Assembly: GCF_009914755.1 (NCBI RefSeq)
Contig: NC_060948.1
DNA: 64,000 nt
Origin: the human T2T-CHM13v2.0 reference genome, Homo sapiens
Direction: 5' to 3' (one strand)
In this document: in pieces, positions 5,751 through 19,551 of the stretch
Position numbering within the stretch: the first letter of the stretch is position 1
Layout of the letters: the number at the start of each line of letters is the position of its first letter
The notes under the pieces: model-generated
The model's input: only the letters and a program-made list of their open reading frames with translations
What the model was told of the DNA's origin: nothing
Database searches by the model: none
Translations under genes and position numbers: made by a program

Positions 5751-5903
5751 ATATTCATGAACAGAACAGTAAGAAGCCTGTTATGGTCTATATCCATGGG
5801 GGATCTTACATGGAGGGAACCGGTAACATGATTGATGGCAGCATTTTGGCCAGCTATGGGAACGTCATCGTTATCACCATTAACTACCGTCTGGGAATAC
5901 TAG
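5751..5903 (+). CDS. NLGN4Y: Neuroligin-4 internal coding exon (153 nt), cholinesterase-like ectodomain: [52 protein letters not shown]
   Basis: TTTTTTCCAG acceptor and TAG|GTAAGT donor. Carboxylesterase-family motifs PVMVYIHGG and NYRLG. DIHEQ rather than DIHDQ matches my recollection of the Y paralogue; the neuroligin-4 identity is firmer than the X/Y call. Confidence 0.93.
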
Positions 5904-12761: not shown

Positions 12762-13076
<315 letters not shown>

Positions 13077-13619
13077 TCAGTTTTGTTACATGGGTTTATT
13101 CATAGTGGTGATCTCTGGGCTTATATTGCACCCGTCACCTGAATAGTGGAACCTGTATCCAGTAGGTATTATTTCATCATTCATTCTCCTTCCATGTCCT
13201 CATATTTTGTAGCCTCCAGTGTCTATTCCACTCTGTATTCCACTATTCCACTCTGTATGTTAATGTGTACCTGTTGTTTAGCTCCCACTTATAAGTGAGA
13301 ATATGCAGTATTGAACTTTCTGAGTTATTTCACTCATGATACTGAGTTCCACCCAGTTTCACCCATGTCCCTGCAAAACACATAATTTCATTCTTTTTTA
13401 TGACTGACTACTGAGTTGTATTCCATGGATATATAAACTACGGTATATATAATTTATGTATCCAGTTATCTAGTCATTTGTTATGGACACTTAAGTTGAT
13501 TTCATGACTTTACTATTGTGAATAGTGCAGTGATAAACATATCAGTACAGGTCTCTTTTTAATAGAACAATTTCTTTTCCTTTGGGCAGAAACCCACTAC
13601 TGGGATTGCTGAACCAAAT

Positions 13620-13621
<2 letters not shown>

Positions 13622-13667
<46 letters not shown>
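13622..13667. repeat. (TG)~23 microsatellite
   Basis: Direct reading. Confidence 0.95.
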
Positions 13668-13671
<4 letters not shown>

Positions 13672-13677
13672 GTTCTT

Positions 13678-13968
13678 GTTTGTTTTTTTGAGACAGAGTC
13701 TGACTCTGTCACCAGGCTGGAGTGCAGTGGCATGATATTGACTCAGTATAAATTTCATCTCCCAGGTTCAAGTGATTCTTCTGCCTCAGCCTCCTGAGTA
13801 GCTGGGATTACAGACCTGCACCACCACCCCCAGATAATTTTTGTATTTTTAGTAGGAACAGGGTTTCACCATGTTGGCCAGGATTGTCTCGATCTCTTGA
13901 CCTTGTGATCTGCTTGCCTTGGCCTCCCAAAGTGCTGGGATTACAGGCGTGAGCCACTACGCCTGGCC
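13678..13968 (-). mobile_element. AluS (Sc-like)
   Basis: GTCACCAGGCTGGAGTGCAGTGG..GTCTCGATCTCTTGACCTTGTGATC..GCCTGGCC. Confidence 0.9.
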
Positions 13969-14400
13969 CCAAATGGTAGTTCTATCTTAAGTTATTTGGA
14001 AAATCTCCATACTGCATTCCATAGAGGTTGTATTAATTTACCTTCTCACCAACAGTGTATAACTGTACCCTTTTCTCACCATTCTTGCCAACGTATGTTG
14101 CTTTTTGACGTTTTTCAAAATGTCATTCATTTCCACATTTTATTATAATTCCTTAAAATTATGACTTTTAACAAAGAGAAGGGAAACATACAGTTGGTAA
14201 TTTTTTTAAGTGCTGTATAATTTCTAGTTAGAAAGCCACAGATAAGCCCCGTGCTGAAGCGAGGTGGTAAAATAGCACAAGTTTGAAATAAAGTAAATTT
14301 GGGAAGATAAAGTTGTTTTTAGGATGATAAAGATGTTAGATGTTTAAACTTGGTCCAATTTTTCTAACTTTTACTGTATTCTTCACACTTACCCAAACCA

Positions 14401-15230
14401 CAAACAACAAAAGTGAGATAAGGCAGTGATTGGGGATCCTGTTCCAATGCAGATACCAGAGATTCTCTTACTGGAATGATGAATGGTTAACAGCTATGCT
14501 GCATGTGGAAGTAAAATGCTTTCCCCCCCAAAAAAAATGGACCAATAAACACATAGCTTGGGCCTTTAAGGTCATATCAACCAATGGTTGACCCAAAGTC
14601 TGTCCAGGTGTGTTGACAGACTTCAGTCTTTCTTCCTGTGATATGAGTTCAGGTAGTAGAAACTCAGGGAAGGGCCCTTTGCTTTCTTTTTTGATGGGTC
14701 CAGACTTTAGCAGATAAGCAACATTAGAGAAAAACTTCCTCCTGTGCTTTGGGGTCACAGAGGGTTGAAAGACAAGAGGGAGTGAGAGAAGATGAGAGAC
14801 ATTGAGGCTTCTTCTTCAGTTCAACACATCAAAGCACCATATGTTGGAGCATGGATTTCTGAGTCCCAACAACTGGGTAGTGAAGACCACCCAGGGCTGT
14901 GTGTTGAGGATTCTGATGCAGACAGTCAAGGCTCACTTCTCTGAGAGGAAGCTAAATGCGACTCAGGAACACATCCCCATCTCAAATGTGTTTGTTATAT
15001 TGATGACAGTTGGCACTCAGATAGCATGCATCCCTTGTGGTTTCAACGGTTGGTTGACATGACCTTAAAGGCCAAAGCTATGTATTCATTGGTCCATTTT
15101 TTTGAGGAATGCATTTTATTTCCACAATGCAGCAAAGCTGCTAACCATTCATCATGCCAGTAAGAGAATCCCCGGGATCTGCACTGGAACAGGATCCCCA
15201 ATCACTGCTTTATCTCACTTTTGTTGTTTG
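14401..15230. repeat. Long inverted repeat: arms about 14401-14591 and 15043-15230, spacer about 450 bp
   Basis: AAAGTGAGATAAGGCAGTGATTGGGGATCCTGTTCCA vs TGGAACAGGATCCCCAATCACTGCTTTATCTCACTTT; GGCCTTTAAGGTCATATCAACCAA vs TTGGTTGACATGACCTTAAAGGCC. Confidence 0.92.
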
Positions 15231-16087
15231 TTTTGTTTTAATTTGTTTTATGTTTTACAAATAATCTGAAGTTAAAATATAATTGATAAAAGCAGTTATC
15301 TTGTGATGTCAGGATAAGTAAACTAGTGCACTTCAAGCAACATCTAACCAAGTGTCATTTTCTTGCTGGATTGCAATATTGATAGGCACATGGGATAATA
15401 TATCACGTAGATCCTGATTGTAGATCAATGCATCTTGATCCTGCATCTTGACCCTCTTCTCAGTGGGCTACATTTATGCCTAAAGAAAAATATTCTCTCA
15501 ATCCTCAAGAACATGAAACATTACAATCTGCAGAGCAAATTGCCAGCAGGAGAAAATGTTACCAAATATTCAAAAGCATGCTTTTTGTGTAAATGATCTT
15601 GAAACTCCAGGTAATGGGGGAAACAGGGTGAGGAGTGCATAAGCCAAGAACCTTATTTGACCCAGCAGCTTCCGGTTTCTAAAACCCTACTCATGCAGTG
15701 CCAGGAGGAAAATAACCAATTGGCATCACTTAATGTTTAGTGATAGAAAAAGAAAAGCATGCCTTTGTTCATTTTCTACTCTTCTCATTTCCTGCCTCAC
15801 CATTCATCAAATGAAACAGTACATTTTCATTTTCTCTATATGACTTGTAGCATTTTTGGGAATAGATGATGCGCTTAACATATTGCTGTTCATTTATGTG
15901 AAAAGATATTTCTGCTATTGTCCAAAGAGAGTGTCCATTTGCAAAATATCTAGTGTATGAAGACAAGTTTTATTTTCATTTTTCCCTTGTCTTTATATTT
16001 TAAATGTAGTTATAAAATGAGAGAACATGGGTTCACAAAGAAACATGAAATTCATAATTAATAAATGTGATTTTCTATTTGTTTTAG

Positions 16088-16173
16088 GTATGCAAGAGGC
16101 ACGTTTGTGTGGGAGCTCAAAAATGTTTAATTATTTTAAATCTCCTTTCACTAATTTAATAAATTTTTTTTGA
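16088..16173 (+). CDS. NLGN4Y: Alternative terminal coding exon of a short NLGN4Y isoform, (G)MQEARLCGSSKMFNYFKSPFTNLINFF*
   Basis: TTTCTATTTGTTTTAG acceptor (AG 16086-16087). Phase-1 continuation of the 5751-5903 exon is open to TGA 16171-16173. AATAAA at 16158-16163 and 16236-16241. The C-terminus matches my unverified recollection of an annotated short isoform. Confidence 0.75.
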
Positions 16174-16241
16174 GTTCAGATGCAATCTATTACACATGTT
16201 TCTTGATTTTAGGGCGATTCTACCCCAACATGCAAAATAAA
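16158..16241 (+). terminator. Intronic polyadenylation signals (AATAAA 16158-16163 and 16236-16241)
   Basis: Canonical hexamers within and just after the alternative terminal exon. Confidence 0.55.
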
Positions 16242-16276
16242 CAAGAGATCCTTCTAGTTCTTTACAAGTTTCTTAG

Positions 16277-17119
16277 TGAAACACGGCACTTCCCTGATGC
16301 TTTCATGGGTGGGAACTGGAGTGCACAGGTGCTGGAACTTGCTGGCCACTTCGGGGCAGGCAGTGGCAATCTCCATTGACTCACTGCTCCACCCCTCACA
16401 GGAGGAGAAGCACATGTGAGAGGGTGCAGGAGCCAAGATGAGCAATTTTGGATGCCAGCAATTTTAGGTGTAAGGAAGAAGGAACTCCATATCACCCCCA
16501 CAGCAGCATCTCATAGAGGGTGTTTGCTACCCTGGAAGCCCCAGAGGAAGTACTACAGTGTCCCTTTATCTTTGCCATCTGCAGACAGCATGTTAACAGC
16601 TCAGTGGTGGGTGGGTGTGACAGCCTTTTACACCCACACTCATGGCACCTAAGTTCTTGTCCAGCCTCCAGGAACAATGAAGTCACACAAACAAATTGAA
16701 ATGGTAAATGTGGGGGATTTTATTGCCAGTAGAATTGCTCTCAGGGGGAAGGGAAGCTGGGATAGAGCAGAAAGTTAACCTTCCCTAGAAATCCAGTCAT
16801 TCATGGTCAAAATCCTCTCCAAAGCTGCACCATCACGATGTACTTCTGAAGTCAAGCCACTTCTCTCTGATGTCCAACCATTGTCTCTAATGTCCAGTTG
16901 GTATTTCCCTCTGCTGTTTATGCCTAGAGTTTTTATGGGCACCAAATGAGGGGCAGGGAGGGCCATGGGTGGTTTTGGAAAAGGCAACATTCAAGTAAGA
17001 AGACAGGAATGTAAGTTCTCACTTTGGGCTGTGGTTGCATGCTTTTTGGCTTGAGGGTGGAGCCCTCTCCAGGTACCCACTCTCTTCTGCCCATAATTTC
17101 CCTGCCTCTGTCCCTATCA
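16277..17119 (-). mobile_element. ERV1-class solo LTR (MER52/LTR28-like)
   Basis: TG..CA termini. The minus strand begins TGATAGGGACAGAGGCAGGGAAATTATGGGCAGAAGAG..CCACCCTCAAGCC and carries CCCATAAAAAC and AATAAA (plus-strand TTTATT 16719-16724). Confidence 0.75.
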
Positions 17120-17137
17120 ATTTTATATTTATTTTAG

Positions 17138-17274
17138 GTATGCAAGAGGCACATTTTTGTGGAAGTTTGAAAATGTTTAATTATTTTAAATCTCCTTTTG
17201 TTCATTTAAGGAATGTCTTTGGAGCTCAGATGTCATTACACATGTTTCCTGACTTTGGGGAGCTTCCTTGCTAA
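17138..17274 (+). CDS. Second, diverged copy of the alternative terminal exon, (G)MQEAHFCGSLKMFNYFKSPFVHLRNVFGAQMSLHMFPDFGELPC*; use unproven
   Basis: TTTTATATTTATTTTAG acceptor (AG 17136-17137), same phase, open to TAA 17272-17274, AATAAA 17282-17287. Aligns by eye to 16088 onward. Confidence 0.35.
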
Positions 17275-17857
17275 CATGGGAAATAAACAGAGTCCCTAGT
17301 AATTATTTCCAAGTTTCTTAGGTAACCAATTATATGTATTCTACACCCCTTAGCAGTGAGTGTTCATGTTGTCAAATTTCCACTTGTTCTTAAATGAGAT
17401 TAAAACACAACAACAACGATGTTTAAAAGTTTCAACTATAAGAATATAAAATCAATGTATACTCCTTTGGGTTTTTCTCTAATTTTTTCACAGAATTCTG
17501 GTTTGCAAAAAGCCAGTAGCTGATTTATCTTCTGAAGATCTCTGTCTAAAATTAATAGGTATACTTTCATAAGCACACTTCATTTTGCAGGTGAAAAATT
17601 TTCTCCCAACAATTGTATATGATAGTGATTTACAAGTCAGTATTTTTGCTGTAAAGAGCGTGCCTCTAAGTATCATGTGAAGTAATTTAAATTATGCCAT
17701 TTTTTAGTAAGCATGTTGACTGAATCTCATGTATTTCCACTGATTCCACACTAAACAAACTATGTTTTATTTTTACTGCATTTGACTTGGTTTATATAGT
17801 TTACATAGACACTTTTGTATGTCTAAGCATGCCTGAGCATTATACTACATGGCATGG

Positions 17858-19551
17858 TAATGTGGTTTGGCTGTGTCGCTACTCAGATCTCATCTTGAAT
17901 TGCACTTCCCATAATCCCCACATGTCATGGGACAGACACAATGGGAGGTAATCGAGTCTTGTGGGTGGCTATCTTCATGCTGCTCTCAAAATAGTGAGTT
18001 CTTATGATATCTGATAGTTGTATAAGGGGCTTTTTCCCCTTTTGCTCAACATTTTTGTTGCTACCACCATTTGAAAAACACGTTTGCTTCCCCTTCTTCC
18101 ATGATTGCAAGTTCCCTGAGGACTCCCCAGCCATGCTGAACTGTGAGTCAATTAAACCTTTTTACTTCATAAATTACCCAGTCTTGAGTATGTCTTTATT
18201 AGCAGTGTGAGAACGGACTAAATACAGTAAATTAGTTCTGAGAGTGGGGTGCTGCTGTAAAGATACCTGAAAATGTGGAAGTGACTTTGGAACTGGGTTA
18301 AACAGGCAGAGGTTGTAACAGTTTGGAAGGCTCAGAAAGGAAGATATGGGAAAGTTTGGAACTTCCTAGACACTTGTTGAATGACGTTGACCAAAATGCT
18401 AATAGTGATACGGACCATGAAGTCCAAGCTAAGGTGGTCTCTGATGGAGAAGAGAAGCTTGTTGGGAACTGGAATAAAAGTGACTCTTGCTATGTTTAAG
18501 GAAAGAGACTGGCAGCATTTTGCCCCTGCCCTAGAAATCTGTGGAATTTTGAACTTGAGAGAGATGATTTATAGTATCTGGTGGAAGGGGAATTTGGGGT
18601 TAGAACCCACATACAGAGTCTCCACTGGGACACTGCCTAGTGGAGCTGTGAAAAGAGGGGCATACTCCAGACACCAGAGTGGAAGATTGCACCAAGCACC
18701 TGGAAAAGCCACAGAGGGTCAATGCCAGCTATTGAAAGCAGCTGGTGTTGAAGGGTGTATGCAGCAAAGCCACAGGTGTGGAGCTTCCTAAAGCCATGGG
18801 AGCCCAACTTTTGCATTATTGTAACTTGGATGTGAGACATGGAGTCAAAGAAGATTATTTTAGAGCTTTACAATTTGGCTGCCCCACAGGATTTTAGACC
18901 TGGATGGGACCTGTAGCCCCTTCATTTTTGTGAATTTCTCACATTTGGAACAAGTGTTTTTTAGCCAATGCCTCTACTCCCATTGTGTTTGGAAGTAACT
19001 AACTTGCTTTTGATTTTACAGGCTCATAGGCAGAAAGCACTTGTCTTGCCACAGGTGAGACTTTGGACTTGGACTTTTGAGTTAATGCTGAATGAGTTAA
19101 GACTTTGGGGGACTGTTGGTATGATATGATTTGTGTTTTGAAGTGTGAGGACATGAGATTTGGGAGGGTCTAGGGACCGAAAGATATGGTTTGGCTGTGT
19201 CTGCATCCAAATCTCATCTTGAATTATAGTTTCCCTAATCTCCTTATGTTGCGGGAGGGACCCAGTGGGAGGTAATTGGATCTTGGGGGCAGATACCCTC
19301 ATTCTGTTCTCATCATAGTGAGTTTTCATGAGATCTGATGGTTTCAGAAGGGGCTTTTCTCCCATTTGCTCTGCCCTTCTCCACGCTGCTGCCATGTGAA
19401 GAAGGACATTTTTGCTTCACCTTCTGCCACAATTAAGTTTCCAGAGGCCTCTCCAGCCCTGTGGAACTGTGGGTTAATTAAATGTTTTTTCTCTATAAAT
19501 TACCCAGTCTTGGGTATGTCTTTATTAGCAACATGAGAATGGACTAATATC
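17858..19551 (+). mobile_element. THE1/MST-type MaLR element: 5' LTR 17858-18226, shortened internal region, 3' LTR about 19182-19551, TSD CATGG
   Basis: Two homologous LTRs (TGGTTTGGCTGTGTC..ATCTCATCTTGAATT..ATAAATTACCCAGTCTTG..GGACTAA); CATGG at 17853-17857 and 19552-19556. Confidence 0.88.

What the first reader, a model, noticed from the sequence alone, without database searches (positions are those of the whole stretch)
16070..17321. Terminal-exon cassette duplicated flush against both ends of a solo LTR, giving two alternative truncated neuroligin tails
Seen: copy 1 (16070-16276) ends at the base before the LTR's TG, and copy 2 (17120-17321) starts at the base after its CA. Identity is roughly 80-85% by eye over the first ~110 bp. 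Both copies keep the TTTTAG acceptor, the reading phase of the 5751-5903 exon and a downstream AATAAA. Copy 1 has TGA plus an overlapping AATAAA where copy 2 has GGA and AAGGAA, so the tails are 27 aa versus 44 aa. Established: retroviral integrases make 4-6 bp TSDs, so a ~205-bp flanking duplication is anomalous. Inference: an aberrant integration or repair event (or insertion exactly at a tandem-duplication junction) produced tandem competing last exons. Either product would lack most of the esterase-like domain, the transmembrane helix and the PDZ-binding tail.
Basis: partly seen in the sequence, partly recalled or inferred. Interest (0 to 1): 0.8.

Follow-up and report, generated by a model that had tools for sequence, protein, structure and literature searches.

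The report
Solo LTR with 205-bp flanking duplication
An ancient retroviral LTR in an intron of NLGN4Y, and of its X-linked twin NLGN4X, sits between two copies of about 205 bases of host DNA, most likely a rare but already described oversized target-site duplication, and one copy carries a known alternative last exon.

Summary
Window 16070-16276 and 17120-17321 are direct copies (163 of 202 aligned bases identical). They abut an 843-bp interspersed element at 16277-17119 with no spare bases. Its ends coincide with the family ends TGAAGCAGG...CCCTATCA.

The family makes 4-bp target-site duplications: all 9 tabulated copies match at 3 or 4 of 4 positions, this copy at 1 of 4. None of 29 other copies has a long flush duplication. 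The duplicated segment is unique DNA, found only here and at the matching NLGN4X site.

NLGN4X has the same A-LTR-A layout, so the event predates X-Y divergence and is not Y-specific. Relative dating puts duplication and insertion at the same age within wide error.

Long duplications of this kind are in print: HERV-K 61-450 bp (PMC5488345) and XMRV 273 bp (PMC2857682). My best reading (0.55) is uncoordinated integration with a 205-bp stagger, then collapse to a solo LTR.

The reading frames and tails (27 and 44 aa) are right. Copy 1 is the RefSeq exon 16088-16185. Copy 2 has no annotation. Verdict: a new example of a known kind, of modest interest.

The parts
5751..5903 (+). NLGN4Y coding exon that would splice to either copy. 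It encodes ...[39 protein letters not shown] and ends in phase 1.
   Evidence: Hub annotation. Only frame 2 of the joined exons is open. Pfam COesterase E 6e-19, profile positions 98-145 of 515.
16070..16276 (+). Copy A1 of the duplicated unique host segment (207 bp). It ends at the base before the LTR.
   Evidence: Only four copies exist in the genome, two here and two in NLGN4X.
16088..16185 (+). Alternative terminal exon inside A1. Acceptor TTTTAG|GT, in-frame tail G plus 27 aa, TGA at 16171-16173, AATAAA at 16158-16163, which is 22 nt before the annotated end.
   Evidence: The hub's RefSeq table lists it under 'exons of other transcripts 16088-16185'. Frame, hexamer position.
16277..17119 (-). 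Complete 843-bp solo LTR of an interspersed family that makes 4-bp duplications (ERV1-like). It is probably antisense to NLGN4Y.
   Evidence: 45 matches at E<=0.001 from 40 scored of 1348 candidates. 592 hits of a 28-nt end motif against 0 for the reversed control. Ends shared with the family. Family 4-bp duplication. AATAAA on the minus strand at the aligned place in 9 of 11 copies.
17120..17321 (+). Copy A2 of the duplicated host segment (202 bp). It starts at the base after the LTR.
17138..17274 (+). Hypothetical second terminal exon. Same acceptor, in-frame tail G plus 44 aa, TAA at 17272-17274, AATAAA at 17282-17287. It is not annotated.
   Evidence: The hub's table has no such exon, and no transcript data were available here.

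Best explanation
Before the NLGN4 region stopped recombining between X and Y, a gammaretrovirus-like (ERV1-type) provirus integrated into this intron, probably antisense to the gene. Its two ends joined the target uncoordinatedly, about 205 bp apart instead of 4 bp apart. Gap repair then copied those 205 bp of host DNA, giving an oversized target-site duplication. The provirus later collapsed to a solo LTR by LTR-LTR recombination.

The duplicated host segment carries a TTTTAG acceptor, an open continuation of the upstream exon's phase and an AATAAA. After the event the intron therefore held two cryptic terminal-exon cassettes.

On the Y, copy 1 has a canonical AATAAA at 16158-16163 that the other three copies lack. 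That copy is the annotated alternative last exon. It would give a protein truncated after about 28% of the esterase-like domain.

Shown here: the anatomy, the uniqueness of the duplicated segment, the family's 4-bp habit, the X-Y sharing, the compatible ages and the frames. Inferred: the integration mechanism, the former provirus and any use of copy 2.
For: (1) Both junctions are flush, with no spare or missing bases. The LTR ends TGAAACACGG and CCCTATCA sit at the family end columns.
(2) All 9 tabulated family copies have a 4-bp duplication matching at 3 or 4 of 4 positions (3 exact). This copy matches at 1 of 4. The X copy, read by eye as TTAA versus GTTT, also matches at 1 of 4.
(3) The only significant similarity between the 400-bp flanks is the flush 205-bp pair, E 1.4e-48. 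None of 9 and none of 20 other family copies has a flush long duplication.
(4) The duplicated segment has only four copies in the 3.1-Gb assembly, two here and two at the NLGN4X site. It is host DNA, not part of the element or of another repeat.
(5) The same layout is present on X.
(6) Relative age, as the branch before the X-Y split divided by the X branch after it: duplication 0.29 (bootstrap 0.00-0.85), LTR 0.34 (0.18-0.59). The two are compatible with one event.
(7) Precedent in gammaretroviruses: 1 of 15 XMRV integration sites had a 273-bp duplication, attributed to uncoordinated joining (PMC2857682, passages read).
(8) Precedent in HERV-K: 8 LTR5_Hs sites have flanking duplications over 10 bp, 6 of them 61-450 bp. 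The 250-bp case was verified against a pre-integration allele (PMC5488345, sections 11 and 13 read).
Against: No pre-integration (empty) site could be examined, because only the human assembly was searchable. The order of events is therefore inferred.

The dating interval for the duplication is very wide. It rests on 6, 1 and 3 informative sites for the three possible four-copy groupings, and gene conversion between the copies could distort it.

In the XMRV case the aberrant provirus had a damaged LTR end. Here both ends are intact, so no cause for uncoordinated joining is visible.

The size (205 bp) and spacing (1050 bp) also fit repair-mediated proximal duplications (PMC2671141).

No proviral copy of the family with gag-pol was looked at, so 'LTR' rests on termini, duplication length and copy number. 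The conserved AATAAA lies near the middle of the element, which is unusual for an LTR and is unexplained.
Confidence: 0.55

Rival explanations
1. Ordinary integration with a 4-bp duplication came first. A double-strand break at one LTR-host junction was later repaired by synthesis-dependent strand annealing, which copied the neighbouring 205 bp from the other side of the LTR (a repair-mediated proximal duplication).
For: Pace et al. (PMC2671141, sections 6-7 read) report 824 such duplications in human. Their mean length is 162 bp and maximum 619 bp. Donor and acceptor lie under 5 kb apart, with a peak near 1.2 kb. The 205 bp and 1050 bp seen here fit well. They also report that exons and splice sites were duplicated this way (abstract). 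The last 4 bases of the segment (TTAG) could be the original short duplication and could have served as priming microhomology. The dating allows a duplication somewhat younger than the LTR.
Against: The break would have to fall exactly at the last base of the LTR, and the copied tract would have to end exactly at the other LTR junction. No filler, deletion or offset is seen at either junction. All 39 proximal cases inspected by Pace et al. had microhomology, filler or deletion. Their acceptors interrupt a transposable element, whereas this one abuts it.
Confidence: 0.2
2. A 205-bp tandem duplication A-A already existed, and the provirus happened to insert at its junction.
For: It would give the same A-LTR-A order.
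Against: It needs insertion at the exact junction base and also loss of the family's 4-bp duplication. No extra TTAG or ATTT is present at either side, on Y or on X. The A1-A2 internal branch is short, 0.0145 per copy (bootstrap -0.0003 to 0.032), so the duplication is not measurably older than the LTR.
Confidence: 0.1
3. Two independent insertions of the same family, 205 bp apart and in the same orientation, sat on different haplotypes. They recombined ectopically through their LTRs, joining 'x-A-LTR' to 'LTR-A-y'. This is a pseudo-duplication of the kind Kahyo et al. discuss.
For: It yields flush junctions and unmatched 4-bp flanks without any aberrant integrase step. The family was abundant: 592 end-motif hits and 1348 candidates. 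PMC5488345 (section 13 read) raises rearrangement models as an alternative to true long duplications.
Against: It requires two near-simultaneous insertions within 205 bp, in the same orientation, segregating together, followed by fixation of the recombinant. No second family copy lies nearby in either X or Y.
Confidence: 0.1

Closest known systems
HERV-K (HML-2) insertions with long target-site duplications (Kahyo et al. 2017, PMC5488345; they cite Mamedov et al. for earlier cases)
   Same: A solo LTR or provirus flanked flush by direct duplications of unique host DNA, tens to hundreds of bp long (61, 96, 111, 206, 250 and 450 bp in their Table 2), in place of the canonical short duplication. 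The 250-bp case was validated against a pre-integration allele.
   Different: Those are young betaretrovirus-like LTR5_Hs elements with nearly identical duplicates (0-3 mismatches). This is a far older family with 4-bp duplications, its duplicates are about 19% diverged, it is fixed and shared by the X and Y gametologues, and no empty allele is available.
XMRV provirus clone C-3 with a 273-bp target-site duplication (Kim et al. 2010, PMC2857682)
   Same: A gammaretrovirus that normally makes 4-bp duplications. [quoted passage not shown]
   Different: That was an experimental infection, and the provirus had a 5-bp deletion that removed the terminal CA of one LTR. Here both LTR termini are intact and the element is a germline fossil.
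Repair-mediated proximal duplications (Pace, Sen, Batzer, Feschotte 2009, PMC2671141)
   Same: Duplication of about 150-200 bp of unique DNA within about 1 kb. The process is known to have copied exons and splice sites.
   Different: Those carry microhomology, filler or deletion at the breakpoints and interrupt a transposable element. Here both junctions coincide exactly with the ends of an intact element.
Intronic polyadenylation / alternative last exon isoforms of membrane receptors (named from my own knowledge; the soluble FLT1 and SCN5A-short titles appeared only in the listing)
   Same: A cryptic acceptor, a short in-frame tail and a poly(A) signal inside an intron would give a truncated N-terminal product without the transmembrane helix.
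   Different: No expression or function data were seen for the NLGN4Y exon. X-Y identity of the segment (about 86%) is no higher than that of the flanking intron (84-89%), so nothing suggests constraint.

Membership tests
Solo LTR of an ERV1-type (4-bp duplication) endogenous retrovirus | Element begins with TG and ends with CA, at the same ends as the other family copies | tested here: met
   16277 TGAAACACGG and 17119 CCCTATCA align with TGAAGCAGG...CCCTATCA in 9 other copies. The same ends are seen in most of 20 further copies.
Solo LTR of an ERV1-type (4-bp duplication) endogenous retrovirus | Dispersed multicopy family | tested here: met
   1348 first-look candidates, 40 scored, giving 45 matches on many chromosomes. 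592 hits of a 28-nt end motif with up to 3 mismatches, against 0 for the reversed control.
Solo LTR of an ERV1-type (4-bp duplication) endogenous retrovirus | Family copies are flanked by a 4-bp target-site duplication | tested here: met
   9 of 9 other copies match at 3 or more of 4 positions, 3 of them exactly. The 5- and 6-bp alternatives fit worse. Exact 4-bp pairs are also visible by eye in several of the 20 copies (not tabulated).
Solo LTR of an ERV1-type (4-bp duplication) endogenous retrovirus | This copy itself carries the 4-bp duplication | tested here: not met
   TTAG versus ATTT, 1 of 4. On X, TTAA versus GTTT, read by eye. This is the anomaly under study.
Solo LTR of an ERV1-type (4-bp duplication) endogenous retrovirus | Proviral copies exist, with two LTRs around gag-pol-env | not tested
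   Only one close pair was examined, on contig 6: two copies about 390 bp apart. No internal region was analysed. No RepeatMasker or Dfam name could be obtained with these tools.
Solo LTR of an ERV1-type (4-bp duplication) endogenous retrovirus | U3-R-U5 signals: a TATA-like box and AATAAA in one orientation | tested here: inconclusive
   Minus-strand AATAAA is at the aligned place in 9 of 11 copies, and an upstream TATA-like CCCATAAAAA is mostly conserved. The AATAAA lies about 400 nt from the minus-strand 3' end, which is an atypically long U5.
Retroviral insertion with a long target-site duplication | Direct duplication of unique host DNA, flush with both element ends | tested here: met
   (flush, E 1.4e-48). 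(the segment occurs only at this locus and its X gametologue).
Retroviral insertion with a long target-site duplication | Pre-integration site holds one copy of the segment and no element | not testable with these tools
   Only the human assembly could be searched. Both X and Y carry the full structure.
Retroviral insertion with a long target-site duplication | Duplication and insertion are of the same age | tested here: inconclusive
   Ratio of the branch before the X-Y split to the X branch after it: 0.29 (0.00-0.85) for the duplication and 0.34 (0.18-0.59) for the LTR. Compatible, but with a wide interval.
Repair-mediated proximal duplication (SDSA) | Length up to about 600 bp, donor within 5 kb | tested here: met
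   205 bp, start-to-start spacing 1050 bp. Criteria from PMC2671141.
Repair-mediated proximal duplication (SDSA) | Microhomology, filler or deletion at the breakpoints | tested here: not met
   No filler or deletion at either junction, on Y or on X. The only possible microhomology is the terminal TTAG, if that was an original short duplication.
Alternative last exon by intronic polyadenylation | Acceptor, in-frame stop, and a poly(A) hexamer 10-30 nt before the transcript end | tested here: met
   Copy 1: TTTTAG|GT, TGA at 16171-16173, AATAAA at 16158-16163, annotated end 16185 (hub table). Copy 2 has the acceptor, a stop and a distal AATAAA, but no annotated end.
Alternative last exon by intronic polyadenylation | Transcript evidence for the splice junctions | not testable with these tools
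   The only evidence is the hub's RefSeq row for 16088-16185. No RNA data were available. Nothing supports 5903>17138.

The most novel reading that the evidence does not exclude
The oversized duplication placed two cryptic terminal-exon cassettes in the ancestral NLGN4 intron. On the Y lineage alone, copy 1 acquired or kept a canonical AATAAA (X copy 1 has AATAAG, X copy 2 AATGAA, Y copy 2 AAGGAA). NLGN4Y would then make a male-specific truncated product: an N-terminal neuroligin fragment without a transmembrane helix, which NLGN4X makes less or not at all. Y copy 2, which lost the TGA, would offer a second, longer tail. That would be a retrovirus-seeded functional difference between the X and Y gametologues of an autism-linked gene.
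Probability: 0.07. Interest if true: 0.55.

Novelty: new member of a known kind. Interest (0 to 1): 0.3.

Why it matters
The locus is an old, fixed example of a retroviral insertion with a duplication of about 205 bp, in a family that otherwise makes 4-bp duplications.

Published long-duplication cases that I found are young HERV-K elements or cell-culture infections. This one suggests the same rare integration error also happened in an ancient gammaretrovirus-like lineage, and that such errors can duplicate splice and poly(A) signals inside a gene.

It also corrects the impression that the structure is a Y-specific oddity, since NLGN4X has it too.

The practical consequence is small. One of the two cassettes is already annotated as an alternative NLGN4Y last exon, and nothing seen here suggests selection on it.

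Tried and rejected
- **A as part of an interspersed repeat or of the element:** rejected. Genome searches with each copy at E up to 10 returned only the two Y and two X copies, 5 candidates, all scored. The tool warns that it skips very common words.
- **An ordinary short duplication at shifted boundaries:** 4, 5 and 6 bp were checked, and by eye I looked for an extra TTAG or ATTT beside the LTR. None was found.
- **A larger duplication extending beyond A:** rejected. The 400-bp flanks share only the flush 205-bp match.
- **LTR-A-LTR-A-LTR from unequal exchange between two neighbouring LTRs:** rejected. No further family copy lies near the locus on Y or X.
- **The LTR being much older than the duplication:** I first suspected this from the BLAST identities of 71-77%. 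With a proper alignment the family distance is JC 0.24 and the X-Y LTR distance 0.233, and the relative ages agree. The suspicion was dropped.
- **Finding a provirus of the family:** among the 100 listed of 592 motif hits, only one same-strand pair lay within a few kb, on contig 6. It proved to be two LTR copies about 390 bp apart and was not informative. I did not pursue it further.
- **Naming the LTR family:** not possible, because no RepeatMasker or Dfam tool was on hand.
- **Papers on a truncated NLGN4Y isoform:** one search listed nothing relevant among its 12 rows. This does not show that none exists.
Full report
**1. What is in the sequence**

Reading 15800-17700 and running the repeat finder confirm a direct duplication. 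It falls into three collinear pieces:
- 16070-16182 / 17120-17232, 84% identical
- 16189-16243 / 17235-17289, 78%
- 16244-16283 / 17289-17328, 75%

In a four-way alignment the two Y copies differ at 39 of 202 aligned bases. BLAST of the 400 bases left of the insert against the 400 bases right of it gives one strong hit: left 194-400 to right 1-202, 79.7%, E 1.4e-48. It is flush with both junctions, and everything else is noise of 7-17 bases.

**2. What the insert is**

A search of the window's own 3.1-Gb assembly with 16277-17119 gave 1348 first-look candidates. Forty were scored, giving 45 matches at E<=0.001 on many chromosomes. Several cover positions 1-843, at 70-77% BLAST identity.

A 28-nt motif from the end of one copy occurs 592 times with up to 3 mismatches. 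The reversed control occurs 0 times.

Aligned with 9 other copies and their flanks, homology starts at TGAAGCAGG and ends at CCCTATCA. The Y copy's 16277 and 17119 fall on those same columns.

The family makes 4-bp target-site duplications. All 9 copies match at 3 or 4 of 4 positions (3 exact), and the 5- and 6-bp alternatives fit worse. TG...CA ends with 4-bp duplications of varied sequence indicate an ERV1-type LTR; that assignment rests on my own knowledge of the classes.

An AATAAA on the minus strand is present at the aligned place in 9 of 11 copies, so the element probably lies antisense to NLGN4Y. It sits near the middle of the element, which I cannot explain. I could not name the family and did not examine a provirus.

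**3. The anomaly**

At this copy the 4 bases on either side are TTAG and ATTT, which match at 1 of 4 positions. There is no spare TTAG or ATTT that would mark a normal duplication at a slightly different place. In its place stands the 205-bp pair.

None of 9 other copies and none of 20 further copies has a flush long duplication. One copy sits in a GTA microsatellite. Two copies and one have short matches that are not flush.

**4. The duplicated segment is unique host DNA, and X has the same structure**

Searches with each copy at E up to 10 found five matches, all five candidates scored: the two Y copies, and on contig 23 (X) one intact copy plus a second copy split in two by a later insertion.

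I fetched 9 kb of that X region. It is collinear with the window from about 13044 to 18524 at 82-86% identity.

In gene orientation it reads x-A1-LTR-A2-y, with flush junctions...TTTCTTAA|TGAAACAGG and ...CCCTATCG|GTTTTGTATTT. The position, about 5.55 Mb on X and on the minus strand, is that of NLGN4X; I place the gene there from my own knowledge. X also has two later nested insertions, one inside the LTR and one inside A2. The event therefore predates the X-Y divergence of this region.

**5. Relative age**

Among the four A copies, 6 informative sites group the copies by position (A1 with A1, A2 with A2), against 1 and 3 for the two alternatives.

| Branch (least-squares, JC) | Duplicated segment A | LTR |
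|---|---|---|
| Before the X-Y split (stem) | 0.0145 per copy | 0.032 |
| X branch after the split | 0.051 | 0.091 |
| Y branch after the split | 0.095 | 0.142 |
| Stem / X branch | 0.29 (bootstrap 0.00-0.85) | 0.34 (0.18-0.59) |

LTR values come from X, Y and 9 other copies; A values.

The two ages are indistinguishable. A duplication much older than the insertion is not favoured. Gene conversion between the copies could bias this estimate.

**6. Mechanism**

Four routes give A-LTR-A:
- (b) normal integration followed by a break at the junction, repaired by copying the neighbouring segment;
- (c) insertion at the junction of an older tandem duplication;
- (d) ectopic LTR-LTR exchange between two nearby insertions.

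Route (a) needs one rare event and explains both flush junctions and the missing 4-bp duplication. It also has direct precedent:
- In XMRV, which makes 4-bp duplications, 1 of 15 sites had a 273-bp duplication (PMC2857682, passages read).
- In HERV-K, 8 LTR5_Hs sites have flanking duplications over 10 bp, among them 96, 111, 206, 250 and 450 bp. The 250-bp case was verified by a pre-integration allele (PMC5488345, sections 11 and 13 read).

Route (b) fits the size and spacing statistics of Pace et al. (mean 162 bp, donor under 5 kb away). It requires breakpoints exactly at both element ends, without the filler, deletion or microhomology they saw in all 39 proximal cases.

Routes (c) and (d) each need extra coincidences. 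I put (a) at 0.55, (b) at 0.20, and (c) and (d) at 0.10 each.

**7. The exon reading**

The frame of 2114-2173 plus 5751-5903 that is open gives ...[39 protein letters not shown]. This matches Pfam COesterase at profile positions 98-145 of 515 (E 6e-19).

Spliced to 16088, it continues as G plus 27 residues and TGA at 16171-16173. Spliced to 17138, it continues as G plus 44 residues and TAA at 17272-17274. Either product would keep only about the first 28% of the esterase-like domain.

The hub's RefSeq table lists 16088-16185 as an exon of other NLGN4Y transcripts. AATAAA at 16158-16163 sits 22 nt before that end.

All four copies keep the TTTTAG|GT acceptor. At the first hexamer site only Y copy 1 reads AATAAA. 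X copy 1 reads AATAAG, X copy 2 AATGAA and Y copy 2 AAGGAA. The in-frame TGA is present in three copies and is changed to GGA only in Y copy 2.

X-Y identity of the segment is about 86% (29 of 205 and 25 of 200 mismatches). That is no higher than the flanking intron at 84-89%, so nothing points to constraint. No data available here bear on use of copy 2.

**8. Novelty**

The kind of event, a retroviral insertion with a duplication of 100 bp or more, is published. The copy-1 exon is annotated.

Three things are new here:
- this locus as an old, fixed ERV1-type example;
- its presence in both gametologues;
- the fact that the duplicated target carries a terminal-exon cassette.

One search on long duplications beside solo LTRs, one on aberrant integration and one on NLGN4Y isoforms turned up nothing on this locus among the rows listed. 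That is not proof that it is undescribed. Supplementary tables of PMC5488345 and PMC2671141 were not opened and could list related cases.

Noticed in passing
L018 (contig 23, 5555253-5555902, minus strand as read): The X-linked LTR copy is split by a nested element of about 650 bp that starts with TG, ends with CA and holds AATAATAAAG. It looks like a younger LTR. It is absent from the Y copy.
   Followed up: no
L018 (contig 23, about 5554252-5554671): The X-linked second host copy (A2) is split by an insertion of about 420 bp that is absent from Y and from both A1 copies. Similar short words (CAGGCAAGT / CAGGAAGT) lie at its two edges. Its nature is unknown.
   Followed up: no
window 14400-14591: This stretch matches the X region in the opposite orientation (88.7% over 194 bases). 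The matching place lies inside the block that is otherwise collinear with window 14595-16662. It is either a small inverted duplicate on Y or two copies of one repeat in opposite orientation.
   Followed up: no
window 14595-16069 versus 17322-18524: X-Y divergence differs between the two unique flanks: JC 0.117 on the left (159 of 1470) and 0.174 on the right (184 of 1183). The LTR itself is at 0.233.
   Followed up: partly
L019 (contig 6, 146684383-146686215): Two copies of the same LTR family lie about 390 bp apart in the same orientation. The first has an internal deletion. This could be a heavily deleted provirus or two adjacent insertions.
   Followed up: partly
window 16716-16729 (minus strand): The family's conserved AATAAA lies about 400 nt from the minus-strand 3' end of an 843-nt element. 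That implies an unusually long region after the poly(A) signal for an LTR.
   Followed up: partly
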